Assembly: GCA_018655525.1 (NCBI GenBank)
Contig: JABIJM010000002.1
Span: 109,575 to 173,574 of the forward strand
DNA length: 64,000 nt
Source: Candidatus Woesearchaeota archaeon
Lineage (GTDB): Archaea; Nanobdellota; Nanobdellia; Woesearchaeales; GW2011-AR9
Direction: 5' to 3'
Each line of letters opens with the position of its first letter. Position 1 is the first letter of the stretch. The position numbers and the translations under genes are program-made. Under the pieces are notes generated by a model. That model was not told the origin of the DNA and made no database searches. It saw nothing but the letters and a program-made list of their open reading frames with translations. This document shows, piece after piece, positions 68 to 41,581 of the stretch.

Positions 68-2410
68 ATGGTGAACAAAATAGACGTTTTTAGTCGTACT
101 ACTCGCAAAGCTAATTCTAAGAAAGGTCAGGTTACGGTTTTCATCATAATTGGAATCATTTTAGTCTTTGTTACTGCTGGAATTATATTCATAACTCAGT
201 CTGCTTCTGATGCAGGATTAACTGCTTCTGGTGATCCAATCATTGAAGATGCTCCTCAAGAATTCCGTCCATTACAACAATTTATAGAAGGATGTGTACA
301 AGATACAGCTAAGAAAGGATTAATTACGCTTGGTGAACAAGGAGGGTACATCTCTCCAAAAGGAAAGTTCTCAGCATCAGAACCAACTGAATCAGATGGT
401 TTAAATCTTGAACCTTTGAAAGTTCCTTATTGGCATTACAATAGTAAACCTTCTTCAGCATCCACTGTTGTGTTCACATCTAAACAACCTAAATTATATG
501 CAAAAGATGATCCTGATTTTAGTATTGAAGTACAATTAGCTGATTATGTTGAAGCAAATTTAGATTCTTGTTATTCAACATTTGATTCATTTAAATCCCA
601 GGGTTTTCTTATTGAAACAGATAAAATAGATGACGTAACTGTGAAAGTAGCAACAGATACAGTCAATTTTTGGGTGAAACAAGATATCTCTGCAGAGAAA
701 GGGAGCGCTCGTCATGAAATGAATCAATATTTCATTAAAATCCCGTTACGTTTAAAACATTTTTATGAAGTCGCATCTGATTTAACAGAACAAGAATTAA
801 ATCAACAATATTTAGAAAATATTGGATTAAATAATTTGCAAACATATACATTAGCAGACACTTCCAAATTACCTCCTACAAATACTGTGACTTTTGCGGC
901 AGTTAGTACAAATTCATGGAGTACGCCATTAGTGAAAGAAGATATCAAAAATATGTTAACTTCAAATGTTCCATTAATCAGATATCAGAGTAGTGTAGAT
1001 TTTTACAGATTTGAGTTTCCAGAATCTGATAATCAAAAATTAATTCAGAAATCCTATGATAATATGATTCTTCCAATTACAAAAGCAAAAGGTGTAGAAG
1101 TTTCTTTTGATTATTATGGGTGGGAACCTTATTTAGATATCAATGGGGGCGAAGAAACAATTGAACCAGAAAATAACATTATTAAAAGCCCACTTCCCGT
1201 AATCCCCTTTAATTTTAATTTCCAAAGATATCACAACACTTACGATTTATCATATCCCGTTCTGGTTTCAGTTAGAGACCCTAAAGCATTTAGCGGAGAA
1301 GGATATACATTCAATTTTGCTTTAGAATCAAATATTGTAAATAATAGAGCAGCAGTTGCAGATTATATTCAACCTGCAGTTATTCAAAGTCTAAGCCCCT
1401 CAATGGTTTGTGATAAAAATAAAAGGGATACAGAACTAATTAGGACTGTTGTTGTTGACAGTTTTACAAAAGAACCTTTAGATTTAGTAAAAATTGGTTT
1501 TGATGTCCCAAATCAAGAATATTGTGATATAGGTGAAACAAATACGCAAGGAACATTAGATGCAAAATATCCTGCAGTTTATGGTGGAAATATTGATTTG
1601 GTAAAATCAAATTATTTGTCTGGGATTATGCCTGTAAATACGTATAATTATAAAGATCAAGAAGCTATTGTTGGATATGCTGTTGAAGGATTAAATCAGC
1701 CAGTTATTCAATTACATAAATTACATGACGTCAATTTCCGTGTTCAAAAAAAATCTTTTGAAAAATGTGTGACAGACGAAGATGGTGATGAAACATGCTT
1801 TTCACAAGGATTATTCTCAGAAAAATCTGAGAAACAAATCTCTTATGATCCAGAAATGTTAGAGGAAACCCATGGATGGTCCTTTATAGATTTAGCAAAA
1901 AATCTTGAAGATGATGAAACAGCAGCAGTAATCCTAAAACGTGTATCAGGCTTGAATAATAATATTATTGAAGATGATTTTTCCACAGTTGTAAATGTAC
2001 AAGGGAACAACGTTGCAAGATTAAAAATTGTGCCAGGGATTTATGAAGTTACTGCATACCTTACAGATGAATTAGGAATTTATATCCCAGAAAGTGAACG
2101 ATGTACACCTGGTGTCTTAGAAGCAATTGCCTGTGTAGATCTTGATGGATGTTGTGTAATGTTCCCAGATACTGAATTAAAAGAATTTATTGCGGGACGA
2201 GTTTCGTGGAAAACACCAGAAACTTACATTACCATCACGCCAGAACAATTATATACCTCACAAGAAATAATTATTACATTACCTTCATTAAATCTTCAAG
2301 GCGTTCCATTAAACAATAGGATTACTGAAGATTTACAAATCGTAGAAAATGTTGCAAAAGCTTCCGCTACTCCTGAAATTAGGAAAGCTTTAGACATTAT
2401 ATTTAGATAG
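68..2410 (+). CDS. Large surface protein with archaeal class III (type IV pilin-like) signal peptide
   Basis: N-terminus ...SKKG|QVTVFIIIGIILVFVTAGIIF is a basic leader, then G-Q, then about 20 hydrophobic residues. This is typical of substrates of the archaeal prepilin peptidase (PibD/EppA). It is paralogous to the 14998..16332 ORF over the signal and the following FIEGC...GGY region. It is the first gene of a tightly packed plus-strand operon. Confidence 0.55.
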   Translation: MVNKIDVFSRTTRKANSKKGQVTVFIIIGIILVFVTAGIIFITQSASDAGLTASGDPIIEDAPQEFRPLQQFIEGCVQDTAKKGLITLGEQGGYISPKGKFSASEPTESDGLNLEPLKVPYWHYNSKPSSASTVVFTSKQPKLYAKDDPDFSIEVQLADYVEANLDSCYSTFDSFKSQGFLIETDKIDDVTVKVATDTVNFWVKQDISAEKGSARHEMNQYFIKIPLRLKHFYEVASDLTEQELNQQYLENIGLNNLQTYTLADTSKLPPTNTVTFAAVSTNSWSTPLVKEDIKNMLTSNVPLIRYQSSVDFYRFEFPESDNQKLIQKSYDNMILPITKAKGVEVSFDYYGWEPYLDINGGEETIEPENNIIKSPLPVIPFNFNFQRYHNTYDLSYPVLVSVRDPKAFSGEGYTFNFALESNIVNNRAAVADYIQPAVIQSLSPSMVCDKNKRDTELIRTVVVDSFTKEPLDLVKIGFDVPNQEYCDIGETNTQGTLDAKYPAVYGGNIDLVKSNYLSGIMPVNTYNYKDQEAIVGYAVEGLNQPVIQLHKLHDVNFRVQKKSFEKCVTDEDGDETCFSQGLFSEKSEKQISYDPEMLEETHGWSFIDLAKNLEDDETAAVILKRVSGLNNNIIEDDFSTVVNVQGNNVARLKIVPGIYEVTAYLTDELGIYIPESERCTPGVLEAIACVDLDGCCVMFPDTELKEFIAGRVSWKTPETYITITPEQLYTSQEIIITLPSLNLQGVPLNNRITEDLQIVENVAKASATPEIRKALDIIFR

Positions 2411-2414
2411 AATA

Positions 2415-5400
2415 ATGAGTAAACAAAAAAAAGGTGTGTCTGTACTGATGATTTTCCTCATCTTAGTTTTACCAATCTATTCTGCACAAGTTCTTGCAGT
2501 GAATGTACAAATAAATACAAACACCGGATTAGCTGGTGTTGATGGATTCATTGATGCAACCGGAGATACATGGACTGTGCAAGCATTAGTTACAAGTCCA
2601 CCCACAGATGTGCAACCTGAAGATTTAATCTTACAAATTGGCACAAATTCTGCAAAATTCAATTCATGTGGTGATGATACATTAGGAAAATTATGTAAAT
2701 ATGAAAGCCCATTATCTGGTGGTGTGAAAGAAGGGTCACATCCATTCCAAGTAATCTATCAACCAGCAGGAGGCGCAGAATTAGCTTCAGATTCTAGTAT
2801 TATTACATCAGATGGATCTGGACCAACAATTTCAACAGTTAATGCATTTCAACAAGAAGGTGTTGTATTAATGACATTTACAGTTATTGAAGATGTTGAT
2901 GGGTCTGGAATCAAAAAAATAGAAATTTTAAATGCAAAATCAAGTGAAGTATTATTTACGAAAGAAATTCCTGCGAATACAAAAACCTATACATATAATG
3001 CAGAAGACGGAAAAATAGAACTACAAGGTGAAGGGCAACAGTATGTGAAAGTACGTGCAGAAGATAATCTTGGCCATGTATCTGTTTCTAATGTTGTTTC
3101 TTTCTCAGGAGACTTCGTTCCGCCTGTTATTATAGAAGATTCACTTGAATTAGTAGATTTAGGAAAATTTATCGGTCAATTTGAATCAACAACAGATATT
3201 TCTGTAAGTGTTAAAGAAAAAACAATTCCTCTTGTTACCGCATTATCAGAAGAAGCTAAAATTACAACTTCTGCAGAATGTGAAGATGATTTAACCGTTG
3301 TAGATTTATGGCATTGTACGTTTAAGAACGTGAAAGTATTTTCAGAGAGTAATACAGTGTCATTACAAGTGAAAGCCGTAGATTCAGCAGGTAATCAGGA
3401 TATAAAAACAATTACAAAGACATTAAGTAAAGATGCATCCTCACCAACTGTAAAATTCTTAGGAACAACACAAACATATAATGGGAAAAGTTTTATTAAA
3501 TCCGGTGAAAACAAAATTATTTTAATTGCAAGCGATGTTGGTTCCGGTGTAGATTTTAAATCTATTCGTGCTAATCTAAAAGGCATTGGGGGAGATTTAA
3601 GTATATCCCCAGATGCTTGTTATCAAGATGGAAAAGATACGATTTGTGTTTGGGAACAATCTAAAATATTTAGTTCTGATGAAATTATTCGTATTGGATT
3701 ATCACAGTTTAAAGATATTGCAGGAAATGAAGGAGATTTAAAAGAAGTAGAATTGTTTTCTGACATCTCAGAACCCAAAGTTGGAAAAATAGAAATCTAT
3801 GGTGGAGATAAAACATTCTTTCAAAGTAATGATCAATTAAAAATCAAAGTTAAGATTGCCGAAGAAAATGGATTACAAGTTCTTGTAAACCTAAATGATG
3901 TCGTGATGGATGCAGAAACTCTTTACCCTGCAACTGAGATCTCTGAAAAAGGATGGAAATTATTTACAGAAGAACAATGTACACGTCAAGATGGTGAAAC
4001 CGAATGGAATTGTGAATTTGTAACGGACACCATTAAATCAGGACCAGACATATTTAATTTGCAAGTAGCAGTTCATGATACTGCAGGAAATAATGCAGAA
4101 GAATGGGCGAAAAAACCCCTTAATGTAGAATCTGGTGATAAAGGAAATTATAGAATTAAGTTACTTGGATTAGATAGTGAAGCAAATCCAAATTATTGGG
4201 AAAAGTTATCTGCTGTACCTTTAGTAAAATTTGTAGATTTAGATACAACCAAATTAACACGTACCAGAATTCCATTTAATGTTCAATTTAAAAGTAAAAA
4301 AGCAAAAATGTTATCTTTAGATATTGTAGGATGTAAGCCTAAGGGTGAAAGTCCAGCTATCTCTAAAGGAAGTGTTAAGATTACAGAAAAAGGTTCAGGA
4401 GAAGATGTACCTTTGACAGAAAATCCTTCAGAAGAAGCTTCAAGTCTTCAATTAAGCCGTACATTAATAACTGGAAAGAACTTTCCAGGAGGAGATGTAT
4501 CACCAACATCCACAAAATTAATCATGGAATTCCAACCATTTGATGGTCATGAAATGTTTAATATTGGTGAAGAAGATGAATTTACAAAAGCAGAAGTAGA
4601 ATTTACATGTCAATTTAGATTATTCTCACAAGTTGGAAATTCTGCATTAAAAGCAGCAGAGATTCAAGAAATTGATGTAACTGTGCCATTTGCATTTTCT
4701 AAACTAGGTGCAGTTGATGAAAATATTGACAACAAAATACAAGATATCAAAGATGACATATGGTTTAAAATTCCAGATAGATTAGCAGTTGTTAATGACG
4801 TGTTGAAAATTGTAAGATATATTGGTCCGATTGTAAGTGTCTTGAAAAGTCTCAATGTTTTTTTTAACTTAGCCAATGGAAATATGGATGAAGTTAGAAC
4901 TTCCATTCCTGTTTATGGTCCTGCAGCTGCAATTAGTTCCTGTACAGCAACCGAAAATGTAATCCAAAAAGGATTGTGGGAAGGATTTGCAGTTTTTGAT
5001 GTAACTTTACAAGTATTATCATGTAACCCAGGACCTGCACCAACAACATGGTATGGAAAATATCAAAAAAATGTCTTAAATTTTTTTAATGCCTATAAAA
5101 GTCTTGGTATGAAACAAGATACAAGTTTATATGATAATATTTATTTATCATCGGCAGGATTATGTATTCCAGGCGTAATTCACAATTTAGAAAAATGGAG
5201 ACAAATTCAATGCATCCAGATAGATTGTTTACAAAACGTTGTTCCATCAGGAGCAGCAACAGTATCAAGCTGTGAAAAGATAAATGACATCTTAACATGT
5301 AAATATTTTACCGGAGAATTAGTTGGTATGTTTATCCCAATGACCGGATTAACAAAAGGAGTAAAAGATATGATTAAGGCAGCATTAACAAACCCAGTTG

Positions 5401-5606
5401 GTTTAGTCCGTGCAGGATTAACATTAGGTTGTTCGGCAAGTTGCGTTACATCAGGAACCGGCACAGCCTTCTGTGATTATGTTGGAATTGGAGTATTAGC
5501 AGTTGATACCATTGAAAATGTTATTGGATTAGTACAATCATACCCTACCATCAGTCAAGATTACTGCTCAAGAATAGGAGAAACAGGAACTAGTTTCCTC
5601 AGCTAA
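2415..5606 (+). CDS. Large secreted cysteine-rich surface protein (1063 aa)
   Basis: Starts 5 nt after the upstream stop. The N-terminal basic leader plus hydrophobic segment (MSKQKKGVSVLMIFLILVLPIYSAQVLA) is a Sec-type or class III-like signal. Sequence is Thr/Ser/Val-rich and beta-rich. The C-terminal 250 aa are Cys-rich. No catalytic motif recognised. Confidence 0.5.
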   Translation: MSKQKKGVSVLMIFLILVLPIYSAQVLAVNVQINTNTGLAGVDGFIDATGDTWTVQALVTSPPTDVQPEDLILQIGTNSAKFNSCGDDTLGKLCKYESPLSGGVKEGSHPFQVIYQPAGGAELASDSSIITSDGSGPTISTVNAFQQEGVVLMTFTVIEDVDGSGIKKIEILNAKSSEVLFTKEIPANTKTYTYNAEDGKIELQGEGQQYVKVRAEDNLGHVSVSNVVSFSGDFVPPVIIEDSLELVDLGKFIGQFESTTDISVSVKEKTIPLVTALSEEAKITTSAECEDDLTVVDLWHCTFKNVKVFSESNTVSLQVKAVDSAGNQDIKTITKTLSKDASSPTVKFLGTTQTYNGKSFIKSGENKIILIASDVGSGVDFKSIRANLKGIGGDLSISPDACYQDGKDTICVWEQSKIFSSDEIIRIGLSQFKDIAGNEGDLKEVELFSDISEPKVGKIEIYGGDKTFFQSNDQLKIKVKIAEENGLQVLVNLNDVVMDAETLYPATEISEKGWKLFTEEQCTRQDGETEWNCEFVTDTIKSGPDIFNLQVAVHDTAGNNAEEWAKKPLNVESGDKGNYRIKLLGLDSEANPNYWEKLSAVPLVKFVDLDTTKLTRTRIPFNVQFKSKKAKMLSLDIVGCKPKGESPAISKGSVKITEKGSGEDVPLTENPSEEASSLQLSRTLITGKNFPGGDVSPTSTKLIMEFQPFDGHEMFNIGEEDEFTKAEVEFTCQFRLFSQVGNSALKAAEIQEIDVTVPFAFSKLGAVDENIDNKIQDIKDDIWFKIPDRLAVVNDVLKIVRYIGPIVSVLKSLNVFFNLANGNMDEVRTSIPVYGPAAAISSCTATENVIQKGLWEGFAVFDVTLQVLSCNPGPAPTTWYGKYQKNVLNFFNAYKSLGMKQDTSLYDNIYLSSAGLCIPGVIHNLEKWRQIQCIQIDCLQNVVPSGAATVSSCEKINDILTCKYFTGELVGMFIPMTGLTKGVKDMIKAALTNPVGLVRAGLTLGCSASCVTSGTGTAFCDYVGIGVLAVDTIENVIGLVQSYPTISQDYCSRIGETGTSFLS

Positions 5607-5608
5607 AA

Positions 5609-8600
5609 ATGAAAAAACTAACCTTAATAATTGTACTTTTGCTTATGTTATCTAGTGTAGTCTACGCTGCAGAAGAAGTAGAAACAAATAATTGCGATGG
5701 ATTCTGGGGAAGCTTGAAATGCTTCTTAGTTGGGGATGCAGAGAATCGTGCTGGAATGAGTTGGTTTGATAGAAGCGAGAATTTAGTTGGTTTTGCTGGA
5801 GTTGTTCCAGATGGTTGGCAAAATAAACCTGCTGGAATTTATAAAGGTAAAGATGGAAAGTTATATGTTGTTGGTGTTGCTAAAAATAGAGGAATTGTTG
5901 ATCTTGCAAGAAAAGCAGCAATCGACAATGCAAAACAACAAATGGCAGAAGCAACAGGGGAATCTAATTTTAAATCAATAGCTCCAAATCAAAATTTTAA
6001 GGATGACAAGAATAAGTTATATAAAACCCTTATTGTAATTATTCCTGAAACTCCTGGGCAAAAAACTGATGTTCTAGCTTTAATGAAAAAAGTAGGAGAT
6101 AATGGTTATATGCCTACATTAGAAGATGTTCCAGTTTCACCACCGCAACCAACTCAACCTGATCAACCACAAGGTGCAACGTTGAATAAAGATTCCGTTC
6201 AATTAACTCCTAATGATTACAATACGAAGACTCCATTAACCAAAGACCAATATAAAGCTAAATTTCCAGATAATACTCCCGGTGATTATAATACTTATAG
6301 AAACATTTGGCCTTCTGTAAAATTTGAATCACAAGTAAAAAAGAATTATGATGTGAAGGATGTTAAAGTACAATCCTCAACATTAAATGGTGTGACAACA
6401 GGTCAAATAACAATCACAAAAAAAGATGGAACACAAGTTAAAATTCCTTATACTCGTGATTTAGATGATGATGTTGATAAGGGGAAGGATTTAGATCAAG
6501 TTGTGAATAAATATCTCAGTCAAAATTCAAATACTGCGAGTTTACCACCTAAATCATCTACACCTTCACCAATTGTTGTTCCACCTCTAACAAAAACTCC
6601 AACCTCCCAATCTGTATCCGCTCCAATAATTGTTCCTGCTAAAATTAAATCTGAAGTAAAAAATTCAGGAGCTCTTTCACTTTGTCAACCAACATCTCAA
6701 AAAGGATTATGTAGAGTTTCAGCGGGTGAATCTTTTAATATATTATACAAAGATGCTGAAGGAAACTTTAATCCAGTAACAAGCATCAAAGGAAAAGATA
6801 TTACTTATGATAAATCTAAAGGAACAACAGATCATACTAAAGTTACAGGAGCAGTTAATATCCTTGTTGCAAAGAAGGCTGGAGTGACAGGAGTTCCTGC
6901 AACTTCTGCACCGGTTGTTGTATCACCTACAGCACCAGCTGCACCTACCCCCGTTCCTCAAGTAATAAAGGATCTTGAAACTAAATGTAATAATGATGAT
7001 GCGAACGCTTGTTTTAATTTAGGTGTAAAATATGAATTTGGAGTTTCAGGTGTTGATAAAAATATTCCTAAATCCAAACAATTATTTAGAAAATCTTGTT
7101 TATTTGAATCTGGTGGTATAGCTTGTTCTAGTGCATTAGGTGTTGATTATGAGAACAAACCAAGTATCAAAACATATCAAGACAAATGGATCACTCAAAA
7201 ATGCCCTGATGGAGTATGTCCGACAGGAACAACGTGTATTGGAATAATTTCAAGCGGTAAATGTAAATCAAATGGAGAATTGACTGGTGAAACAGTCGCT
7301 GCAATGAAAGCAGATGTACAAACCGCTAACTTTGCTGAACCTGGAGCAGCAACACCAACTCCTTCACCAGTTCCCCCATCTTCAGCAGTACCTACACCTG
7401 CTCCTCAAACTCCAACTCAAATATCACCTGCACAAGTAGAAGCAGCAACACCACAACTAACTGATTCAGCAAAACAGATCTCAATTAAAAGTAATGGAGC
7501 TGGTGGGGCTGATATTTTGAAAAATAATGCTAAAATTACTGCTACACAAGGTGATATTACTGTAAATGGTGTTCGTCTTGATGGAGATAAAATAGTTGTT
7601 GATGCTACTAAAAAAATGTTATGGGGTGCCTATGATGGAACTGGAGACCTTGGAAGTTTTGAAAAGCAACCTGATGGTTCAGTCAAATTTATTCCTGGAG
7701 ATGATTATAATAAACTCGAAGGAGAACAAAGAACAGATTTTGATGAATTTAAGGACATGATGGTAAAAAGTCCGTCTGCTTTTAAGAAAGTTCAGGATAC
7801 AATTAAAAGTGATAGTATAGATGAAACAGTAACTGCACCAGAATTACGAGATGAAGCTAAGAAAGATGTAAAGGCAACTTTAGAAGCTAAGAAAAAAGCT
7901 GCGACTGGCGGTGATCCAACTAAACCTACTTCAGGAGAAAAAGCGAAAAAAATTTCACAAGCAGGTGGTCAAACTCCAGCTCCTACTCACGATAAAGTTA
8001 ATGAAAAACTTTTGAAGGAAGGAAAAGATCTCTATAAAAGGGGAAAAATTAAAGAAGCTGTTAAAAAGTTTGAAGAAGCTTGTGACAAAGGAAATGGCGC
8101 TTCCTGTGCAAATTTAGGTAATTTATATGGTTCTGGTTCCGCTGAAATTCCGAAAGATCAAGTCAAAGCTAATAGTTTATTCAAGAAAGCATGTGATGAT
8201 GGTACTGCTATTGCATGTAATTATTTAGGTGCAAATTATCAAGCCGGTGAAGGTATCACCAAGAACCAAGCTAAAGCTAATGAACTTTTTAAGAAAGGTT
8301 GTGAAAATGGTAACGCAGTTTCATGTAATAATCTCGCACAAAATTATTATCATGGGGATGGAGTTCCATCTGATTATGATAAAGCTAATAATCTTTTTGA
8401 AATTAGTTGTAATACAGGGAATGCAAATGCTTGTGCTTCTTTAGGATACAATTATCAAAAAGGTCTTGGTTATACTGTGAATAAAAATAAAGCTATGGAA
8501 CATTATGCTACATCTTGTAAATTAGGAGGAGATGATTCTTATTGTGCAGCAGCTGTAGGAATTACAGACGCTGATATTACAGGAGTAAAAAAATATAAAT

Positions 8601-10648: not shown

Positions 10649-11460
10649 ATATAAAATCCTATTTTAAACTGGACAAAACATTTTTCAAAATCTTTGCCAT
10701 AGATTTTGTGACATTCTGGGGATTGATCCTCATCTTCCTTGCATCAAGCACTTTCTGGATCTCTAAAGTCTCTTCAGTATTACAAGGTCAATCAGTAGAA
10801 GGATTACAAAACTTCTTATTAACAGCACCAATTGGGCAAGTACAGGACTTTCAATCAGATTTAGTTACTTTTTTCGCAGGAATCATCATTTTCATGATTC
10901 TCACCTTATTGGCAATCACATTCTCACGTTCATTTGTATGGAAAACATTACACAAAAAATGGGTTCCATTCTACAAATGGTTTTTATTAGCATTAGAATT
11001 GATTATTCCTTCAACAATCTATTTCTTTGCTTTCTTTATTGTTAGAATTATCTTATTAGAGATTGTCAAATTCATAGGGAACACATCTTACAACTCTATA
11101 ATTGGATCTGGTGTATATCCACAATCATTAATTGACATAAGCACATTATATATCAATGTTTTAGGAATGATCTTATACTTAATCTTACTTTTCATAACCT
11201 TTGCATCATTCACATCTGAATTACGTGTTTTAAGGGCTGTAGAGAAATCTTATCATATCATGCGCAAACAGATCAAACAAATATCTAAACTCTTCCTCAT
11301 CGCAACAATTGTGGCTATAATCCTCTCTCTGGTTTTACTTCCATTCAGATTCACATTATCCTATCAACCAGTATTAACAATGTTTTTGAATTCTGTTCTT
11401 ACATTTATGTTTATTAGTTGGTTGAGATTCAATACCTCACGCCTTGTCACTCAAAAGTAA
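10642..11460 (+). CDS. Polytopic membrane protein (about 6 TM helices), unknown function
   Basis: Overlaps the stop of the giant protein by 7 nt, suggesting translational coupling. Has multiple long hydrophobic segments. Confidence 0.45.
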   Translation: MVNIKSYFKLDKTFFKIFAIDFVTFWGLILIFLASSTFWISKVSSVLQGQSVEGLQNFLLTAPIGQVQDFQSDLVTFFAGIIIFMILTLLAITFSRSFVWKTLHKKWVPFYKWFLLALELIIPSTIYFFAFFIVRIILLEIVKFIGNTSYNSIIGSGVYPQSLIDISTLYINVLGMILYLILLFITFASFTSELRVLRAVEKSYHIMRKQIKQISKLFLIATIVAIILSLVLLPFRFTLSYQPVLTMFLNSVLTFMFISWLRFNTSRLVTQK

Positions 11461-11499
11461 CAAAAAATTTATAAAGTATTATTCTAATTTTAGTATAAA

Positions 11500-12288
11500 A
11501 TGACACATAAATATTCTCCTTTGATAGCAACAATCATTGCATTATCAGGTTGTACTACTTTTAATTCATGTACTTCCTCACAAAGTGTCATTGAATATCA
11601 TATTGATGAATCACTTCAACCAAAAAGTTCAACTTCTCATACAGTTGTTGAAAAAGTGGTTAAACCAAGGATGCCCAAAATTGTACCAGAATCAGTAACT
11701 AAACCTAAAGGAACACTTTCATTTGGTCGTCCAGTATTTAATGAAAGATATCACAATCAAAATGAGGATTTAGAAGATTTATTGGAAGGACATACAGGTC
11801 AACGAAAAATTGTAATTGATAAATCTGCAAGAGAATTACAGATATACGTTGGTGATGAACTAATTAAATCTTATGGGATTTCATTAAGTAGACGACATCA
11901 ATCTGGGCCTAAACAAAGAAAAGGAGATCTTAAGACACCTGAAGGACATTTTTATGCTGCTCGTAAGAACCCTAATAGTAGATGGCATAAAGCAATTGTA
12001 ATAAGTTATCCTGGTAAAGAAGATGCAATACGTGGATTAAAAAAGGGAATTATAACAAAAAGACAATATACACAAATTTTGAAAGCTCAAGATGAATGTC
12101 GTGAACCTCCAAGAACAAATTTAGGATCTCTGGTAGAAATTCATGGTGCTGGTGGCGGACGATTTTATCAAGATTGGACACATGGTTGTGCTTCATTAAA
12201 TAATAGAGCTATGGATGAAGTTTATAAATTTACATTCACTGGATGTTATAAAGGAAAACCTAAAACTGAAATAATCATTAAGCGATAA
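11500..12288 (+). CDS. Lipoprotein with L,D-transpeptidase (YkuD/ErfK-like) catalytic domain
   Basis: N-terminal hydrophobic segment ends in a lipobox-like LSGC. The C-terminal region carries IHGAGGG-x13-THGCASLNN, which matches the H...[S/T]HGC catalytic signature of L,D-transpeptidases (PF03734). Confidence 0.55.
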   Translation: MTHKYSPLIATIIALSGCTTFNSCTSSQSVIEYHIDESLQPKSSTSHTVVEKVVKPRMPKIVPESVTKPKGTLSFGRPVFNERYHNQNEDLEDLLEGHTGQRKIVIDKSARELQIYVGDELIKSYGISLSRRHQSGPKQRKGDLKTPEGHFYAARKNPNSRWHKAIVISYPGKEDAIRGLKKGIITKRQYTQILKAQDECREPPRTNLGSLVEIHGAGGGRFYQDWTHGCASLNNRAMDEVYKFTFTGCYKGKPKTEIIIKR

Positions 12289-15001
12289 CTTGTTTCTTAA
12301 CATTTTCACATGCAGTTTCTTTTCCTGATGAAACAGCAACACAATTAATTCCTGTTGTTGTATAATACCATTCATTCCCTACTTTTTTATACCACGACCT
12401 TTGATTTAATGTTCGTTCTCCATGAACTGTTTTTAATTTTGAATAAACATTTTCTGTCATATCATCAAAAGAATTTGTAAGTGCAAATTGTTGTTCATAA
12501 TAAGGGGCTTTTCCATCATATCCTTGAATAGTTTGAAGATTAGGATATTTGTCAAGTAACCGTTTTGCACCTATACTGGAATGTTCTCTTATTTTTTGTT
12601 GTATCTCTTTAGAATCAGAAATCTCATTTTTTGGAGATTCTACATCAACTAATGGAGGTCCTTCATCTACTTCAGGACTCGTTAGTGAATTACAAGCACT
12701 AAAATATACATTTTTCACATTACCCTCAGGCATGTTAACAATATTAAAAGTATCAATAGGATTATAATCAGGGTTATCTAAAACTTCTGCTGGAGCAAGA
12801 CTGGATAATTTTGTTGGAGCTTCTCTAAAAAAATAATCACTATCTTTAAAGAAATGCCCTGTTACAACAATATTTTCACTTTTTGTACTTGGAGGTGAAT
12901 CTCTACTATTTACAACAATACATCCCTCAATACGGCATCTACTCTCAAGTAATTGAGCAGTATCGGGATTTTCTCCTGCCATTATTATTGTTGTTTTTGG
13001 CGTCCATGTTTTTCCCACATCAGCTTGGCTTTTACCAGCAGGAGGAATTACTTTCCCATATGCTTTTGCATATTCATATTCACATTCACTTGGAGCGCAT
13101 GTAACAAAACTATTTCTTTTTTTTCGTGACCAACTTCCAGATGAAGATTGATATGGTTTAGAAAAATAATTTTCAACAGCTTTAGGTTGAGTTGTACTTG
13201 AAGACCAATGTTTAACATAAGGTAATTTATCAACAATAACTTTCTCTGTTTTGACAGTCATTGTTGATTGGCCTCGTGAAGGAATAGGAATATGTTTCCC
13301 CCTTCCATCAACATAATCCCAACCATATTTTTTTGTAAATACTAATTTTCCTTCTACTCCATTAATATCTAATGAATTTGGTAACTGTGGTTTTGTATTA
13401 ACATTTTGATTCTTTTTAGGAGGAAGTATTACTCCTTGTTTTTTTGCTAATTCTTGTGCAGCAGTCCTTGAACCAGGATTTTTTGAAATATAAGTTGAAC
13501 TTGAAATTACTTTGTCAGATTCATAAGCATAATCAATTTTTCCAGCTCTAAATTTATTTAAATCTCCTTTTGTTGTAATTTCACCATTAGGGGAGAAAGT
13601 GACTGTTGAACTTTTTTGTAATTTTCGTAATTCTCTTCTAGCATCATTCAAATTAAGTTTACGTATTCTTCTTTTATCTTTTTCAGTAAGATCCATTGAA
13701 ATACTGTCAATTGAGATCTCACCTTGTGATAATCCCTCAACATTTATTTTATCAAAATAGGCTCTAGATGTGAAATCAATTTTTTTTAATTTATTAAATT
13801 CATAAAAACCTAATTCTTCACGGTATGGAGGGTCTGCATTTGCCCCTATTGAATTTACAATACATGGTTTAAATGCACAATAATCACGCGCTTTACTTCC
13901 GGTATTTGTTTTTTCTTCTGAATAAAATATTTTTTGATCTTCTTCATTTACCAAAGAAAAACTTGAAGTTGTTCCTGCAATAATTCCATTACGTCCCATG
14001 ATAAAACTTGTCATTTTGAACTCTTCTCCTTTCTTAGCTAAAATTGTAAATTTATCTCTTAGTAAACGTGGATCATCTTTATCCGCATTTCCATCAATAA
14101 TTGTTCCTGTAATTGTATAACCTGTCGGATTTATATATCCTTCATCTGTTTCATCTTCAGTTGCAAATCTATTGAATGACGTTCCTGAAACCATTAAATT
14201 ATCATATGTAAATTCACCAACATATTTAATTTTAACACCTTCTTGTTCAATAACCATAGCTCCAAATAAAACTTCGCCATCACCCGCGGGAATATTTAAT
14301 GTTTTTACCTTAAAATCTAAATCTGGTAATTTTCCACTTTCCTCATTAGATTTTACATCAACAATTCCACCTACTGTTGTTAAAACTCCATCAGCTTTAC
14401 CTGCACCAACGGTTCCATACATAGAAACACCTTCCTTTAGAACTAATGAACCATCCTCTAAAACCTTTGAATTAGGGAAGTCAGCAATATTAAACCCAGT
14501 TGGTTTTTCTCCATCTGTTAAAACTTTACCATCTTTAAAATCTTTTATTTTTCCACCATTATCTTCTATACCATATTTCCCAAACCATTTCTTTTTTACT
14601 TCAGGTTTATCATTAATTAATGTTGGAGTTTTTTCTATCCTTATATTCATATTTTTAAAAAGTTCATCATTATCAAGCAAATTAGGATCAGATGAAGTTG
14701 CTCTTAGAAAATTCACATCATCAATTTTAACTGCAATAGAAGGGTTGGATTGCATAGCATTTACAAGATTGACTGTACTTATTTCTCCAAAATTTGTGAC
14801 TTGTCCGGATTCAATTGCGGCAGCCAAATCAGGTCCATTCATTTGGTTATAATCAATTGTTACAGGAGTAACTTGTGTCCCTGAACCAGCAACATCAGCT
14901 GTTTGGCCTTGATTTAAAGGTGGTGGAACATAGGTATTAGCGGCATAACTAATCACTGCTAAAATCATACAAATCATTATTATTGTTATAACTTTTTTCA
15001 T
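12278..15001 (-). CDS. Large secreted surface protein (about 907-916 aa)
   Basis: Sec-type signal (MKKVITIIMICMILAVISYAANTY). An alternative upstream ATG at 15028 would add 9 aa. The protein is Gly/Thr/Val-rich and beta-rich. Its 3' end overlaps the 3' end of the plus-strand lipoprotein gene by 11 nt (convergent). It is the second gene of a minus-strand operon headed by the pilin-like gene. Confidence 0.5.
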   Translation of the reverse strand: MKKVITIIMICMILAVISYAANTYVPPPLNQGQTADVAGSGTQVTPVTIDYNQMNGPDLAAAIESGQVTNFGEISTVNLVNAMQSNPSIAVKIDDVNFLRATSSDPNLLDNDELFKNMNIRIEKTPTLINDKPEVKKKWFGKYGIEDNGGKIKDFKDGKVLTDGEKPTGFNIADFPNSKVLEDGSLVLKEGVSMYGTVGAGKADGVLTTVGGIVDVKSNEESGKLPDLDFKVKTLNIPAGDGEVLFGAMVIEQEGVKIKYVGEFTYDNLMVSGTSFNRFATEDETDEGYINPTGYTITGTIIDGNADKDDPRLLRDKFTILAKKGEEFKMTSFIMGRNGIIAGTTSSFSLVNEEDQKIFYSEEKTNTGSKARDYCAFKPCIVNSIGANADPPYREELGFYEFNKLKKIDFTSRAYFDKINVEGLSQGEISIDSISMDLTEKDKRRIRKLNLNDARRELRKLQKSSTVTFSPNGEITTKGDLNKFRAGKIDYAYESDKVISSSTYISKNPGSRTAAQELAKKQGVILPPKKNQNVNTKPQLPNSLDINGVEGKLVFTKKYGWDYVDGRGKHIPIPSRGQSTMTVKTEKVIVDKLPYVKHWSSSTTQPKAVENYFSKPYQSSSGSWSRKKRNSFVTCAPSECEYEYAKAYGKVIPPAGKSQADVGKTWTPKTTIIMAGENPDTAQLLESRCRIEGCIVVNSRDSPPSTKSENIVVTGHFFKDSDYFFREAPTKLSSLAPAEVLDNPDYNPIDTFNIVNMPEGNVKNVYFSACNSLTSPEVDEGPPLVDVESPKNEISDSKEIQQKIREHSSIGAKRLLDKYPNLQTIQGYDGKAPYYEQQFALTNSFDDMTENVYSKLKTVHGERTLNQRSWYKKVGNEWYYTTTGINCVAVSSGKETACENVKKQVIA

Positions 15002-16332
15002 TTGACTTCTAACTCCCACCGTTGCCATGTTGAACCATAATTATTAATTGCATCTACTCTAATATAATGTATTCCTACATTTTCAGGTGAAGGAGTAAAA
15101 TACATTTCTCCAGTCTTATTATTTATTTCAAAAAGGTATGTTCCTGATGAAAAAGATAAAGCACGTTCTGCATTAACTTTTAAAGAAAAGTTTGTGCCAA
15201 CATGTGCAACTTGTTTTTCAATTTTATTCATTTTTGGAGATAATTCATCTTCGATATTAATTGAAATTCGTAATGGGGCTACTTTTTCATTTCCAAAAGG
15301 ATCAATGACTTTTACATAATGTAAATATTCGTCATTACCTAATTTGACAGGATCTAATGAAATCACACCAGAGCTATCAATAGAAAATGTATCAGTATCT
15401 AATTCAAATTGTAATCCTTCGCCGAATGAAGGAACTTTTAATATTTTAATTCCATGCGTAGAAATTTTCCATGTTGGAATTTCATTTAATCCAAAAAATT
15501 CATAAAATAAAATATCTTTTACTGGTGGGATTTCTATTACTTTTTCTTCATCAAACGTCCAGTCAAATCCAAGAGCAAAATTCCATATAAAAGGATTTTG
15601 TCCGTTATCTTCATTTAAAATAATTTCAAAAAGAATATTTTCTCCATTTATACCATAATTTTGAAATTGAACTTGGATCCCCTCGTAAGACAAAGATTCT
15701 GATAGAGAACTTAATAATAATTCTTCCTTCATAGATTGAGTTTTTATAAATGAATTTACTTTTGCATAAGGTCCAATAAATTTTAGAGGAATTGACGTTT
15801 CAAAGACTCTCCGTTCCGCATTTTTTGATCCTAAGCTTACTTTAAAAGGAAATGTTAAATGTGTCATTAATTTTGTGTTTGTAAATTCTGATCTAATTAA
15901 AGGAACTCCGATATTAAATTTATAACCTTCTTTTTCAAAAGATTTGAAATTATTAATACATTCAAGAAATTTTGTTTCACTTATAGATGAAATACTCTCG
16001 GAAAATGTTGATAGTGAAGGAAACATTTTATTACTTTTATGTAAATAGAATGGTACGATTAATTTATCTGAACCTTCATTATATGTGAATCCTGCTAAAG
16101 AAGAACCAATGGTGGTATATCCTCCATTATTTAATACAATTGATGTTGATTCAGTAAGACTTTTTTCAAGACATGAACTTACAAACAATTCAACAGAATC
16201 TATATTAAATTGAACATCAGTAGGTAATTCTTCTATTGATGAAGATTTAACAAGTAAAATAATCAAAGCAGTAACAAATAACAGAATTATTCCTATAATT
16301 ATAAACACCGTAACCTGTCCTCTTTTATTCAT
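14998..16332 (-). CDS. Surface protein with archaeal class III (type IV pilin-like) signal peptide, paralog of the 68..2410 product
   Basis: N-terminus MNKRG|QVTVFIIIGIILLFVTALIIL has a short basic leader, then G-Q and a hydrophobic helix. The following LFVSSCLEKS...LNNGGY region resembles FIEGCVQDT...GEQGGY in the 780-aa protein. Confidence 0.55.
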   Translation of the reverse strand: MNKRGQVTVFIIIGIILLFVTALIILLVKSSSIEELPTDVQFNIDSVELFVSSCLEKSLTESTSIVLNNGGYTTIGSSLAGFTYNEGSDKLIVPFYLHKSNKMFPSLSTFSESISSISETKFLECINNFKSFEKEGYKFNIGVPLIRSEFTNTKLMTHLTFPFKVSLGSKNAERRVFETSIPLKFIGPYAKVNSFIKTQSMKEELLLSSLSESLSYEGIQVQFQNYGINGENILFEIILNEDNGQNPFIWNFALGFDWTFDEEKVIEIPPVKDILFYEFFGLNEIPTWKISTHGIKILKVPSFGEGLQFELDTDTFSIDSSGVISLDPVKLGNDEYLHYVKVIDPFGNEKVAPLRISINIEDELSPKMNKIEKQVAHVGTNFSLKVNAERALSFSSGTYLFEINNKTGEMYFTPSPENVGIHYIRVDAINNYGSTWQRWELEVK

Positions 16333-20402: not shown

Positions 20403-21854
20403 TTAGGATGGCTTAATCTGTGGATTTTGTTGGTTTTCTTCCTTATCCCCTTCTTTCTTTGGTTCAATTGAAACCTCAGAGCCATGTTCCTTATCTACAA
20501 TGACTTTCTTCTTTTTCCGACCATCTTCTTGCATCTTTAAATCACGTAAATGTCGCTTCCAACGATTCATAGTATAATTAACAGGGTTCTTGATATGGCT
20601 ACACAACATATCTTTCTCACATATGCCCATATCTACGTAATACGCTGCATTATCGCAATTTGGAGGTAACTTTTCACCTGCTTTATAATGATGCATCTGA
20701 CCGCGAATATAGCCTTCTCGTAATGGCTCTGGATTCTTAGAGTTCCACACCATCAAATACTTCTCAACTTCAGGTTTACTCCATCCAACTTTACCAAGAT
20801 AATTCATCATTGCAAATAATGTCCTTTTCTTACCGTCTTCAATACCAAGTAATGCTTTCTTAATGCAAGGAGGAAAAAAGATCTCTTGAATTGGATTTTC
20901 CAGTTTTACTTCTTGAAATTGTTTTTCTGTTTCAATCTGTCTTTTTTCATCTATTTTTGCAGCATAATCTAATGCATTTTTAAGAATCCTAGTCCCACTT
21001 TCATCAGAAACCTCACGACCTAGAAATGTAAACTCAGAAGGGATTATTTTATCTGGGTGAGCCATAGGCTTTTCAAATTCCATCACTTTAGAAGGATCAA
21101 TTGGGAGACTTGCTAATCCAGATTTCTCATGTAATGAATAAGGCATACGATAGAGGTGTCTTGATGAAATTAATACAGTGTCAATCTCCAAAAATTTGTC
21201 GACGTTAAGTTTTGATATTTTGTCGCCCATGGGGTTGGTAGAATAACGAATAATTTCTTCTTCTTTTAGCCCCACTTTTTCTTTAATTTTTCCAAAACTA
21301 CCCTCTAATTCCATAATTCTTCTTCCTAGTTCCTCGTCAATATGATCTCGGATATATAATGCAATCTTTTTAGGAAATTCAGGAAACTGTTCGCTTGTTA
21401 TAATCTCACCTACCCTTTCTGGAAACGCTTCAAAAGGCACACCAATATGGAACCCCTTATTTCCTGAAAACTTACAGCTAATGGCGTCTTCTTTCACGTG
21501 GTTAAATCTAAGAAATTTAATAATTAAATCAGCACAAATCTTACTATAATCCATAAATGGGCAATCGATATCTAACACTAAATCCCATCCGATTCTCTCT
21601 TCATTCATCTCCTTCCGCCTCATATCGGAGTGAATGTTCAAAGGATTTTGCCATCGTTCCTCGGAGGCATGTAGCGACGTTAAACCTCTTTTAGCAAAAT
21701 CAAATACATCACGAGGATAATTTAATACATCTGGTCTTTTTCCAAAAAATGTATCAAACCTTGTGCCAACCTCTTTATCGCGGGCATGTTTGATAATCTC
21801 GTTTTGAATATCTTCACGTTTATAGTACTTTAGAAGCGTGCTTTTGGTGAGCAT
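20403..21854 (-). CDS. priS: DNA primase small catalytic subunit PriS with Cys-rich C-terminal extension
   Basis: Archaeo-eukaryotic primase motifs are present (LVLDIDCPF; SGNKGFHIGVP; RHLYRMPYSLHEKSG). The 483-aa length and the C-terminal ~150 aa with four Cys (PPCIKK...; PPNCDN...GICEKDMLCSH) suggest a fused accessory or Fe-S domain. Confidence 0.8.
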   Translation of the reverse strand: MLTKSTLLKYYKREDIQNEIIKHARDKEVGTRFDTFFGKRPDVLNYPRDVFDFAKRGLTSLHASEERWQNPLNIHSDMRRKEMNEERIGWDLVLDIDCPFMDYSKICADLIIKFLRFNHVKEDAISCKFSGNKGFHIGVPFEAFPERVGEIITSEQFPEFPKKIALYIRDHIDEELGRRIMELEGSFGKIKEKVGLKEEEIIRYSTNPMGDKISKLNVDKFLEIDTVLISSRHLYRMPYSLHEKSGLASLPIDPSKVMEFEKPMAHPDKIIPSEFTFLGREVSDESGTRILKNALDYAAKIDEKRQIETEKQFQEVKLENPIQEIFFPPCIKKALLGIEDGKKRTLFAMMNYLGKVGWSKPEVEKYLMVWNSKNPEPLREGYIRGQMHHYKAGEKLPPNCDNAAYYVDMGICEKDMLCSHIKNPVNYTMNRWKRHLRDLKMQEDGRKKKKVIVDKEHGSEVSIEPKKEGDKEENQQNPQIKPS

Positions 21855-41299: not shown

Positions 41300-41581
41300 A
41301 TGTTTAAAAATAAAAAAGGTAATATTGCGCTTATTGCAATCATTTTGGCATTAGTCATTTTAGGATATATGTTAACAACATTTGCATTAAGAGATTGTAA
41401 TAATAATACGGATTGTGCAGAAAATGCATATTGTGGTTCTGATTATGAATGTCATGCATATCCAGATGAAATTGTGTATAAACAAAATAACTTTGTACCT
41501 GCATCATTGATTCTTGGAATTTCGTTAATACTTGCAGCGTATTTATTTAGAACAAGTAAAATTCCTTTTAAAAAATATTAG
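41300..41581 (+). CDS. Small two-TM protein with Cys-rich extracytoplasmic loop
   Basis: An N-terminal TM helix, then the loop DCNNNTDCAENAYCGSDYECHAYPDE, then a C-terminal TM helix. Confidence 0.35.
   Translation: MFKNKKGNIALIAIILALVILGYMLTTFALRDCNNNTDCAENAYCGSDYECHAYPDEIVYKQNNFVPASLILGISLILAAYLFRTSKIPFKKY

What the first reader, a model, noticed from the sequence alone, without database searches (positions are those of the whole stretch)
68..16332. Two paralogous pilin-like N-termini (K[KR]GQVTVFIIIGIIL) on 780-aa and 444-aa proteins
The ORFs at 68..2410 and 14998..16332 share an almost identical mature N-terminus, QVTVFIIIGIILVFVTAGIIF and QVTVFIIIGIILLFVTALIIL. Both are preceded by a basic leader ending in G. 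Their DNA shares the core caggttacggt. Homology continues into the globular region (FIEGC...GEQGGY versus FVSSC...LNNGGY). A G|Q cleavage site followed by a hydrophobic helix matches EppA/PibD-type archaeal pilins. However, the mature domains are far larger than canonical pilins, which suggests pilus-tip adhesins or pilin-anchored surface proteins. The two genes sit at opposite ends of the locus as operon leaders.
Basis: seen in the sequence. Interest (0 to 1): 0.7.

Follow-up and report, generated by a model that had tools for sequence, protein, structure and literature searches.

The report
Prepilin-like anchors for giant surface proteins
Two genes of a tiny symbiotic-type archaeon (Woesearchaeota) belong to a very large, unnamed protein family with a pilin-style start signal, and each sits directly in front of a giant secreted protein it probably holds on the cell surface.

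Summary
ORF A (68..2410 +, 780 aa) and ORF B (14998..16332 -, 444 aa) share K[KR]G|QVTVFIIIGIIL, with 18 of 21 residues identical after the Gly. Homology continues for about 250 residues (hhalign probability 99.8%, E 3e-29).

They are paralogs in a large DPANN superfamily with no Pfam or NCBIfam match. It has at least 9,220 clusters at 50% identity, and all named sources are Woesearchaeota or Nanoarchaeota.

In 255 members the leader varies from 4 to 98 aa. Position -1 is only G, A or S, and +1 is always Q. Positions -2 and -3 are mostly K or R, and T+3, F+5 and G+9 are nearly invariant. This fits an archaeal class III, EppA-type prepilin cleavage site.

After the signal comes a novel alpha/beta domain with two invariant Cys, then adhesin-like beta-sandwiches.

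In 28 of 33 readable loci the next gene is a 450 to more than 1,900 aa Sec-signal protein. A 5-6 TM protein often lies adjacent. No pilus ATPase or prepilin peptidase appears in the window or in 0.43 Mb of related loci.

Best reading: prepilin-like membrane anchors or adaptors that present giant secreted adhesins, not classical filament pilins. Cleavage is inferred, not shown. This is a new variant of a known kind.

The parts
68..2410 (+). ORF A, 780 aa. A-type member of the superfamily and first gene of a 5-gene operon.
   Evidence: One search gives the ORF. One search finds more than 400 full-length homologs at 37-99% identity, all 'hypothetical', from Woesearchaeota or Nanoarchaeota. One search finds no Pfam hit in 29 members.
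68..127 (+). Leader of A (aa 1-20), basic and ending in KKG. Putative class III signal peptide, with predicted cleavage between G20 and Q21.
   Evidence: Searches show the sequence. In the family alignment the leader varies in length and sequence. tallies -1 as G/A/S only and +1 as Q in 255 of 255 members.
128..193 (+). Conserved hydrophobic N-terminal helix of A (aa 21-42, QVTVFIIIGIILVFVTAGIIFI).
   Evidence: One search shows Q21, I27 and G29 invariant. models a helix over residues 18-46. One search gives the position tally.
245..1342 (+). Novel alpha/beta N-domain of A (aa ~60-265), with an A-type middle insertion and closing strands (aa ~266-425). Contains invariant C76 and C168 and the GxQGGY motif.
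   Evidence: The small 250-aa family members consist of this core only.
1403..2407 (+). C-terminal beta-sandwich region of A (aa ~446-780), with transthyretin / CarboxypepD_reg / CnaB-like domains.
2415..5606 (+). 1063-aa partner protein with a Sec-type signal peptide, Ig-like repeats and a Cys-rich C-terminal region. Always follows A-type genes.
   Evidence: Synteny in L001, L002, L004, L038 and others, and divergent copies next to divergent A-like paralogs.
5609..10648 (+). 1679-aa secreted protein with Sel1 repeats. Its C-terminal ~270-aa Cys-rich domain is conserved in the third gene of the operon in other genomes.
   Evidence: Sel1, E 4e-31. (C-terminal domain 35-42% identical in L001 and L002, 32% in L009).
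10642..11460 (+). 272-aa polytopic membrane protein (5-6 TM, C-terminal W[LA]RxY motif). A recurrent neighbour of family members.
   Evidence: No Pfam match. No invariant catalytic-type residue.
11500..12288 (+). 262-aa YkuD-type L,D-transpeptidase with a lipobox-like N-terminus. Last gene of the A operon.
   Evidence: PF03734, E 2.8e-14. A homolog lies next to a family member in L024.
12278..15028 (-). 916-aa partner protein of B with a Sec-type signal peptide. Overlaps B by 31 bp.
   Evidence: P916-like genes follow B-like genes in L017 and L018. Not homologous to the 1063-aa protein.
14998..16332 (-). ORF B, 444 aa. B-type member of the superfamily and first gene of a 2-gene operon.
   Evidence: The best hits are B-type cluster representatives. 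One search aligns 23 B-type sequences.
16318..16332 (-). Leader of B (MNKRG, aa 1-5). Predicted cleavage between G5 and Q6.
16249..16317 (-). Conserved hydrophobic N-terminal helix of B (aa 6-28, QVTVFIIIGIILLFVTALIILLV).
   Evidence: Searches show G5, Q6 and F10 invariant, and G14 invariant or nearly so.
15583..16215 (-). N-domain of B (aa ~40-250), homologous to the N-domain of A. Contains invariant C54 and C125 and the GGY motif.
15001..15582 (-). C-terminal Ig-like region of B (aa ~251-444), of the He_PIG / cadherin-like type.
   Evidence: weak PKD hit. (He_PIG hit, E 2e-6, and cadherin hits in B-family members).

Best explanation
ORF A and ORF B are two old paralogs of a very large, so far unannotated family of extracellular proteins in Woesearchaeota/Nanoarchaeota (DPANN).

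Proposed mechanism:
- Each protein is made with an archaeal class III (type IV prepilin-like) signal. This is a variable basic leader ending in [KR]-[GA], followed by an invariant Gln and an almost invariant hydrophobic helix (QVTVFIIIGI...).
- The leader stays in the cytoplasm and is probably removed at G|Q by an EppA/PibD-type prepilin peptidase.
- The hydrophobic helix then keeps the protein in the membrane. Possibly it sits in a short pilin-like stalk, or together with the neighbouring 5-6 TM protein.
- Outside the cell, a family-specific alpha/beta domain, probably disulfide-stabilised, docks the large Sec-secreted protein encoded immediately downstream. Variable beta-sandwich domains extend from it.
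- The result is a set of paralogous cell-surface complexes (anchor/adaptor plus giant adhesin-like partner), most plausibly used for attachment to hosts or surfaces.

Shown by computation: the motif and its conservation pattern, the homology between A and B, the family size and distribution, the domain composition, and the gene pairing.

Inferred: cleavage, anchoring, partner docking and the adhesion role.
For: - Motif. Both ORFs match the FlaFind-type rule and have an uncharged hydrophobic stretch of at least 20 aa.
- Conservation pattern. In 255 of 268 fetched family members, -1 is G 221 / A 32 / S 2, +1 is Q 255/255, -2 is K/R in 222, -3 is K/R in 220, T+3 in 242, F+5 in 250 and G+9 in 254. 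Leader length ranges from 4 to 98 aa (alignments).
- Conservation that starts exactly at a small residue followed by Gln, behind a variable leader, is what a processing site predicts. Gln at +1 is reported as essential for EppA (PMC4390842).
- Epd-type 'system 1' type IV filament loci are reported in some DPANN (bioRxiv 10.64898/2026.04.22.720090). Makarova et al. 2016 note nanoarchaeal secretion ATPases whose pilins could not be identified.
- Class III signals on large non-pilin extracellular proteins are an established category, the bindosome binding proteins.
- Extracellular location. Two Cys are invariant in both families (C76/C168 in A, C54/C125 in B). The C-terminal domains are beta-sandwiches of adhesin or stalk type.
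- Pairing. In 28 of 33 loci with readable downstream sequence, the next gene starts within a few bases or overlaps, and encodes a 450 to more than 1,900 aa protein with a Sec-type signal.
- Co-variation of partners. A-like paralogs sit with P1063-like paralogs, and B-like genes with P916-like genes.
- Family size. 9,220 clusters at E<=1e-3, nearly all matching from their first residues. Some genomes carry at least two or three copies.
Against: - No A24 prepilin peptidase, secretion ATPase or platform protein was found in the 64-kb window or in 0.43 Mb of related loci. One study states that type IV pilus components are missing in DPANN genomes (bioRxiv 10.1101/2020.05.14.094862).
- All 43 exact GQVTVFIIIG matches in GTDB genomes lie in an ORF. 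Every ORF long enough to test also carries the N-domain, and none lies in an unrelated protein. The segment could therefore be a family-specific TM helix rather than a general sorting signal.
- No Pfam or NCBIfam class III, archaellin or pilin model matches.
- The AlphaFold models show a break and a low-confidence linker between the hydrophobic helix and the domain.
- Partner docking rests only on gene adjacency and parallel divergence.
Confidence: 0.5

Rival explanations
1. Uncleaved N-terminal signal-anchor. The basic stretch plus hydrophobic helix is simply a type II membrane anchor (N-in, C-out). Its strong conservation reflects helix-helix packing with the neighbouring 5-6 TM membrane protein, not recognition by a prepilin peptidase. 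The rest of the model (surface anchor for the secreted partner) stays the same.
For: - A ~250-280 aa polytopic membrane protein lies next to family members in the window and in L001, L007, L011, L027, L033 and L034. It diverges in parallel with them.
- The conserved helix was found only in this family among the 43 exact matches.
- No peptidase or pilus machinery is seen nearby.
- Type IV pilus components are reported as missing in DPANN.
- There is a linker between the helix and the domain in the models.
Against: - A plain anchor does not explain why -1 is restricted to G/A/S and +1 to Gln in 255 of 255 members, while the preceding leader varies freely from 4 to 98 aa.
- It also does not explain why some leaders carry tandem copies of the K[RS]GQ unit.
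- The B operon has no polytopic membrane gene of its own.
Confidence: 0.3
2. True type IV filament subunits. A and B would be minor or modular pilins, or tip adhesins, polymerised into a pilus by a type IV filament machinery encoded elsewhere in the genome.
For: - Class III-type motif with Gln at +1.
- Several paralogs per genome share one N-terminal helix, as pilin sets do.
- 250-aa members with only the core domain exist.
- Large modular pilins are known in bacteria (PMC8179133, listed).
- Nanoarchaeal secretion ATPases without identified pilins are reported.
Against: - No linkage to ATPase, platform or peptidase genes in 45 loci.
- The helix is not continuous with the globular domain in the models.
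- The consistent partner is a Sec-secreted giant protein rather than other pilins.
Confidence: 0.12
3. Core cell-envelope (S-layer-like) system. The A operon would encode the main surface layer of Woesearchaeota. A would be the membrane anchor, functionally like SlaB, and the 1063-aa protein the lattice-forming subunit.
For: - A-type orthologs are found in hundreds of MAGs at 37-47% identity, with conserved operon order and a housekeeping neighbour (MetRS).
Against: - There are many divergent paralogous modules per genome with different partners, which is unlike a single S-layer.
- No S-layer Pfam family matches.
Confidence: 0.08

Closest known systems
EppA-processed type IV pilin-like proteins of Methanococcus maripaludis (Epd pilins; 'system 1' archaeal type IV filaments)
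   Same: - Short basic leader ending in K/R-G.
- Gln at +1, immediately followed by a hydrophobic helix.
- System 1 is reported in some DPANN.
   Different: - No QxSxExxxL / DUF361 motif and no Pfam hit.
- Mature proteins are 250-965 aa with a novel domain.
- Not encoded in a pilus locus, and the peptidase has not been identified.
Bindosome-type substrate-binding proteins of Sulfolobales (GlcS, AraS, TreS) with class III signal peptides
   Same: Large non-pilin extracellular proteins that carry a prepilin-like signal and are encoded away from the filament machinery. They are thought to be held at the surface by the N-terminal helix.
   Different: - No solute-binding fold and no ABC transporter neighbour.
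- Here the constant neighbour is a giant Sec-secreted protein.
- The N-terminal helix is tied to one specific domain family.
Bacterial modular or minor pilins with large partners (S. sanguinis PilB/PilC, GspK, minor pilins with PilY1)
   Same: A prepilin-type N-terminus fused to large adhesive modules. Functional pairing of pilin-like proteins with a large Sec-secreted adhesin (PilY1) is my own knowledge. PilB is taken from PMC8179133, listed.
   Different: - No Glu at +5.
- No assembly genes nearby.
- The lineage is archaeal.
SlaA/SlaB two-component S-layer of Sulfolobales
   Different: - The SlaB anchor is C-terminal and includes a coiled coil.
- Here the anchor is N-terminal and prepilin-like.
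- Here there are many paralogous modules per genome.

Membership tests
Archaeal class III (type IV prepilin-like) signal peptide proteins, FlaFind criteria | Positively charged leader ending in [KR]-[GA] just before the hydrophobic segment | tested here: met
   A has ...SKKG and B has MNKRG. Across the family, -1 is G/A/S in 255 of 255, -2 is K/R in 222 and -3 is K/R in 220.
Archaeal class III (type IV prepilin-like) signal peptide proteins, FlaFind criteria | Permitted +1 residue followed by an uninterrupted hydrophobic stretch of about 20 residues | tested here: met
   Gln at +1 is invariant. The uncharged hydrophobic stretch is 22-23 residues.
Archaeal class III (type IV prepilin-like) signal peptide proteins, FlaFind criteria | Leader removed by an A24-family prepilin peptidase (PibD, FlaK or EppA) | not testable with these tools
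   This needs N-terminal proteomics or a cleavage assay.
Archaeal class III (type IV prepilin-like) signal peptide proteins, FlaFind criteria | An A24 peptidase is encoded in the same genome | not testable with these tools
   Only 64 kb of the genome is visible. No candidate was found there or in 0.43 Mb of related loci. Whole genomes could not be fetched.
Type IV pilins / archaeal pilins (filament subunits) | The N-terminal helix continues into, or packs directly on, the globular domain (pilin fold) | tested here: inconclusive
   [not shown]
Type IV pilins / archaeal pilins (filament subunits) | Gene linked to a secretion ATPase, a platform protein or other pilins | tested here: not met
   No T2SSE-type Walker A motif is found in 45 loci or the window. 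The neighbours are instead Sec-secreted giants and a 5-6 TM protein.
Type IV pilins / archaeal pilins (filament subunits) | Recognised by curated pilin or archaellin N-terminal models | tested here: not met
   There are no Pfam or NCBIfam hits at E<=0.1 for A or B, or at E<=1 for the small family members P0124 and P0126 against NCBIfam.
EppA substrates / Pfam Class_IIIsignal (DUF361) | Gln at +1 | tested here: met
   255 of 255 members. The requirement for Gln is stated in PMC4390842.
EppA substrates / Pfam Class_IIIsignal (DUF361) | QxSxExxxL motif / Pfam match | tested here: not met
   The sequence is Q-V-T-V-F-I-I-I-G. There is no Pfam match in 29 A-type members, and no class III or pilin family among the 23 B-type members.
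Bindosome-type class III binding proteins | Solute-binding fold and ABC transporter neighbourhood | tested here: not met
   The fold searches give beta-sandwich and novel alpha/beta domains. The neighbours are not transporters.
SlaB-like S-layer anchors | C-terminal TM helix with a coiled-coil stalk | tested here: not met
   The only TM segment is N-terminal.

The most novel reading that the evidence does not exclude
The family defines a previously undescribed, DPANN-wide surface display system. A prepilin-like processed anchor protein (invariant G|QVTVFIIIG helix plus a novel docking domain), together with a dedicated 5-6 TM membrane protein, would present interchangeable giant secreted adhesins. 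This would work without a pilus ATPase. The system would be multiplied into several paralogous modules per genome and would serve as the main host-attachment apparatus of Woesearchaeota. It could also account for the 'missing pilins' noted for nanoarchaeal secretion ATPases.
Probability: 0.25. Interest if true: 0.75.

Novelty: new variant of a known kind. Interest (0 to 1): 0.55.

Why it matters
Woesearchaeota and their relatives are abundant, uncultured archaea with small genomes. They are assumed to live attached to other cells, but the molecules that mediate contact are unknown.

This family has at least 9,220 clusters at 50% identity and no Pfam or NCBIfam model. It has an unusually sharp, testable sequence signature, and it is consistently paired with giant secreted proteins. 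It is therefore a concrete candidate for the attachment apparatus.

It also offers a direct test of two questions. The first is whether these organisms use prepilin-peptidase processing at all. The second is whether class III signals serve as general surface anchors outside pili, as proposed for the Sulfolobus bindosome.

A family model built from these alignments would annotate thousands of 'hypothetical proteins'.

Tried and rejected
- Curated family libraries. Pfam and NCBIfam scans of A, B and all operon partners gave only Sel1 (1679-aa protein), YkuD (262-aa protein) and weak Ig-type hits. Per-member scans of 29 A-type members gave nothing, and of 23 B-type members gave only weak He_PIG/cadherin-type Ig hits.
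- Sequence search of the PDB with the A profile, the 1063-aa protein, the 916-aa protein and the C-terminal domain of the 1679-aa protein gave nothing below E 0.5.
- Fold search of the core N-domain gave only weak, non-specific alpha+beta matches. The pilin fold is neither confirmed nor excluded.
- The afdb50 library was not available.
- Idea: the 916-aa and 1063-aa partners are paralogs. Rejected, because BLASTP shows no similarity beyond the signal peptide.
- Idea: the 272-aa polytopic protein is the processing peptidase or a new sortase-like enzyme. Rejected as unsupported. It has no GxGD motif and no invariant Asp, His, Cys, Ser or Glu among 7 homologs.
- Motif searches for pilus ATPases (G.[TS]GSGK[ST]T) and A24-like GxGD proteins in all loci and the window were negative. 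However, only about 0.5 Mb was covered, so this is uninformative at genome level.
- Literature search for type IV pili or prepilin peptidases specifically in Woesearchaeota found no direct statement.
- M50 site-2 proteases lie 4-5 kb from A-type orthologs in three loci. I treated this as conserved synteny, not as a functional link.


Full report
**Setting.** The window has about 32% G+C and carries archaeal housekeeping genes. These include a ribosomal protein and RNA polymerase subunit cluster at 16.4-20.2 kb, a fused PriS-PriL primase, and Nre. All close homologs of the two ORFs come from metagenome-assembled Candidatus Woesearchaeota or Nanoarchaeota, which are DPANN archaea.

**Observation.** Both ORFs are present as described.
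- ORF A lies at 68..2410 (+), is 780 aa, and begins MVNKIDVFSRTTRKANSKKG|QVTVFIIIGIILVFVTAGIIF.
- ORF B lies at 14998..16332 (-), is 444 aa, and begins MNKRG|QVTVFIIIGIILLFVTALIIL.
- After the Gly, 18 of 21 residues are identical.
- The shared DNA core caggttacggt is there. However, 9 of 20 identical residues use different synonymous codons. The duplication is therefore old and the identity is kept by selection on the protein.
- Homology continues well beyond the helix. BLASTP gives 31% identity over 114 aa. A profile comparison of the B family (23 sequences) with the A family (29 sequences) gives probability 99.8% and E 3.4e-29, with confident alignment over the hydrophobic segment plus about 250 residues.
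- No other ORF in the window has this kind of N-terminus.

**The family.**
- ORF A has more than 400 full-length homologs at 37-99% identity, all annotated 'hypothetical'.
- ORF B found few relatives in the word-indexed search, but many with a profile.
- A profile of the shared N-terminal region matched 9,220 cluster representatives (50% identity clusters) at E<=1e-3 and 7,000 at E<=1e-10. Among the 150 listed, nearly all matches begin within the first 35 residues of the protein.
- A scan of one genome per GTDB species for DNA encoding exactly GQVTVFIIIG gave 43 loci. All come from MAGs titled Woesearchaeota, Nanoarchaeota or plain 'archaeon', apart from several titled 'uncultured Methanosarcinales' that are probably mislabelled DPANN bins. 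Some genomes have two or three loci.
- The ORFs carrying the motif range from 250 to 965 aa when complete. Every one long enough to test also carries the downstream N-domain. The 250-aa members consist of the helix plus this domain only.
- No member tested matches any Pfam or NCBIfam family, apart from weak Ig-type hits in B-type C-termini.

**The N-terminal signature.** The tally covers 255 of 268 fetched members. The other 13 are mostly truncated gene calls or slight variants.

| Position | Residues |
|---|---|
| -3 | K/R in 220 |
| -2 | K/R in 222 |
| -1 | G 221, A 32, S 2 |
| +1 | Q 255 |
| +3 | T 242 |
| +5 | F 250 |
| +9 | G 254 |

- The leader in front varies freely in sequence. Its length runs from 4 to 98 aa and is bimodal, at 4-9 and 15-35 aa.
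- This is the archaeal class III (prepilin-like) pattern.
- A small residue at -1 followed by an invariant Gln is hard to explain for a plain anchor. It is expected for a cleavage site, and Gln at +1 is reported as essential for the Methanococcus pilin peptidase EppA (PMC4390842).
- The Epd-type 'system 1' filament loci that use such a peptidase are reported in some DPANN (bioRxiv 10.64898/2026.04.22.720090).
- Makarova et al. 2016 noted nanoarchaeal secretion ATPases whose pilins could not be identified (PMC4858521).

**Structure.**
- The AlphaFold model of A has mean pLDDT 80.6. It shows a hydrophobic helix (residues 18-46), a poorly defined linker, an alpha/beta region, and C-terminal beta-sandwiches.
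- The core domain is therefore effectively novel, and a pilin fold is neither shown nor excluded.
- Two Cys are invariant in both families. This suggests an extracellular disulfide, which is an inference.
- B-type C-termini are He_PIG/cadherin-like Ig domains.

**Gene context.**
- A leads a tight operon. The order is A, then a 1063-aa Sec-signal protein, then a 1679-aa Sel1-repeat protein, then a 272-aa 5-6 TM protein, then a YkuD L,D-transpeptidase.
- The first four genes recur in the same order in a distant genome at 25-42% identity. Parts of the set recur in many other genomes.
- B overlaps a 916-aa Sec-signal protein by 31 bp. P916-like genes follow B-like genes in L017 and L018.
- Across all loci, 28 of 33 members with readable downstream sequence are followed directly by a protein of 450 to more than 1,900 aa with a Sec-type signal. 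A few of these are cut shorter by the end of the locus.
- Divergent A-like paralogs sit beside divergent P1063-like paralogs.
- A homologous ~250-280 aa polytopic membrane protein lies adjacent in at least seven loci. It has no invariant catalytic-type residue.
- No secretion ATPase, platform protein or A24 peptidase was seen in the window or in 0.43 Mb of related loci. This sample is too small to say anything about whole genomes. One study states that type IV pilus components are missing in DPANN.

**Interpretation.**
- The best-supported reading (confidence about 0.5) is that A and B are prepilin-like processed membrane anchors or adaptors. A conserved N-domain holds the giant secreted protein encoded next to it, and this forms paralogous surface adhesion complexes.
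- This reading works like the Sulfolobus bindosome proteins (class III signal on non-pilin surface proteins) and like minor-pilin/PilY1 pairs. It is not a member of either family.
- The main rival (about 0.3) keeps the same architecture but with an uncleaved signal-anchor whose helix packs against the 5-6 TM protein.
- An S-layer role for the A operon is a further minority option (about 0.08).

**Verdict.** The finding is a new variant of a known kind: a large, unannotated DPANN family with a class III-type signal, a novel core domain and an obligate secreted partner. Its interest is moderate to fairly high because it gives a concrete and testable candidate for the cell-contact apparatus of Woesearchaeota. 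Cleavage, anchoring and function remain inferred.

Noticed in passing
window 11500-12288 (+); L024 6030-6476: A YkuD-type L,D-transpeptidase with a bacterial-style lipobox (…LSGC) is the fifth gene of the archaeal A operon. A homolog lies next to another family member in L024. An enzyme that acts on peptidoglycan, placed in a surface-adhesin operon of an archaeon, could hint at bacterial hosts.
   Followed up: partly
homologs P0019, P0086 (alignment A1); L008 41-69: Some leaders contain tandem copies of the cleavage-type unit, for example '...SKRGQVKRVSPLSKRGQVTVF' and 'NKRSQIW...NKSGQIR...NKRGQIW...NKSGQITVF'. It looks as if the K[RS]GQ unit had been duplicated upstream of the functional copy.
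   Followed up: no
window 5609-10648 (+): A 1679-aa secreted protein has five Sel1 repeats, Pro/Thr-rich linkers and a ~270-aa Cys-rich C-terminal domain. That domain is the only part conserved in the third operon gene of other genomes (625 aa in L001).
   Followed up: partly
L002 15471-19019: Several nucleotidyltransferase/HEPN toxin-antitoxin cassettes are inserted between the second and third genes of the otherwise conserved operon.
   Followed up: no
L009 and L029: A-type genes are split into two consecutive ORFs (397+426 aa and 261+416 aa). These are frameshifts, assembly errors or pseudogenes.
   Followed up: no
L002 3820-4917; L039 4460-5665; L040 6720-7898: An M50 site-2 protease (with a CBS domain in L039 and L040) lies 4-5 kb from A-type orthologs in three loci. 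This is probably the same conserved synteny block as MetRS. A functional link to the type II-oriented helix was not tested.
   Followed up: partly
L042 217-693 and 766-1497: Two small proteins (158 and 243 aa) begin MKRG|Q followed by a hydrophobic helix, but they are unrelated to the family. They are possible ordinary pilin-like proteins, which shows that the KRG|Q signature is used elsewhere in Woesearchaeota. They have no significant family hits.
   Followed up: partly
window 41300-41581 (+): A 93-aa ORF has MFKNKKG|N, an N-terminal hydrophobic helix, a Cys-rich middle and a second C-terminal hydrophobic helix. It has no significant family match.
   Followed up: partly
window 20403-21854 (-): A single 483-aa ORF matches both the small and the large primase subunits (PriS-PriL fusion).
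   Followed up: no
L004, L010, L013, L018, L021, L027, L029, L030, L037, L039, L040, L042: MAGs titled 'uncultured Methanosarcinales archaeon' carry this DPANN-type family and its operon. They are probably mislabelled bins.
   Followed up: no
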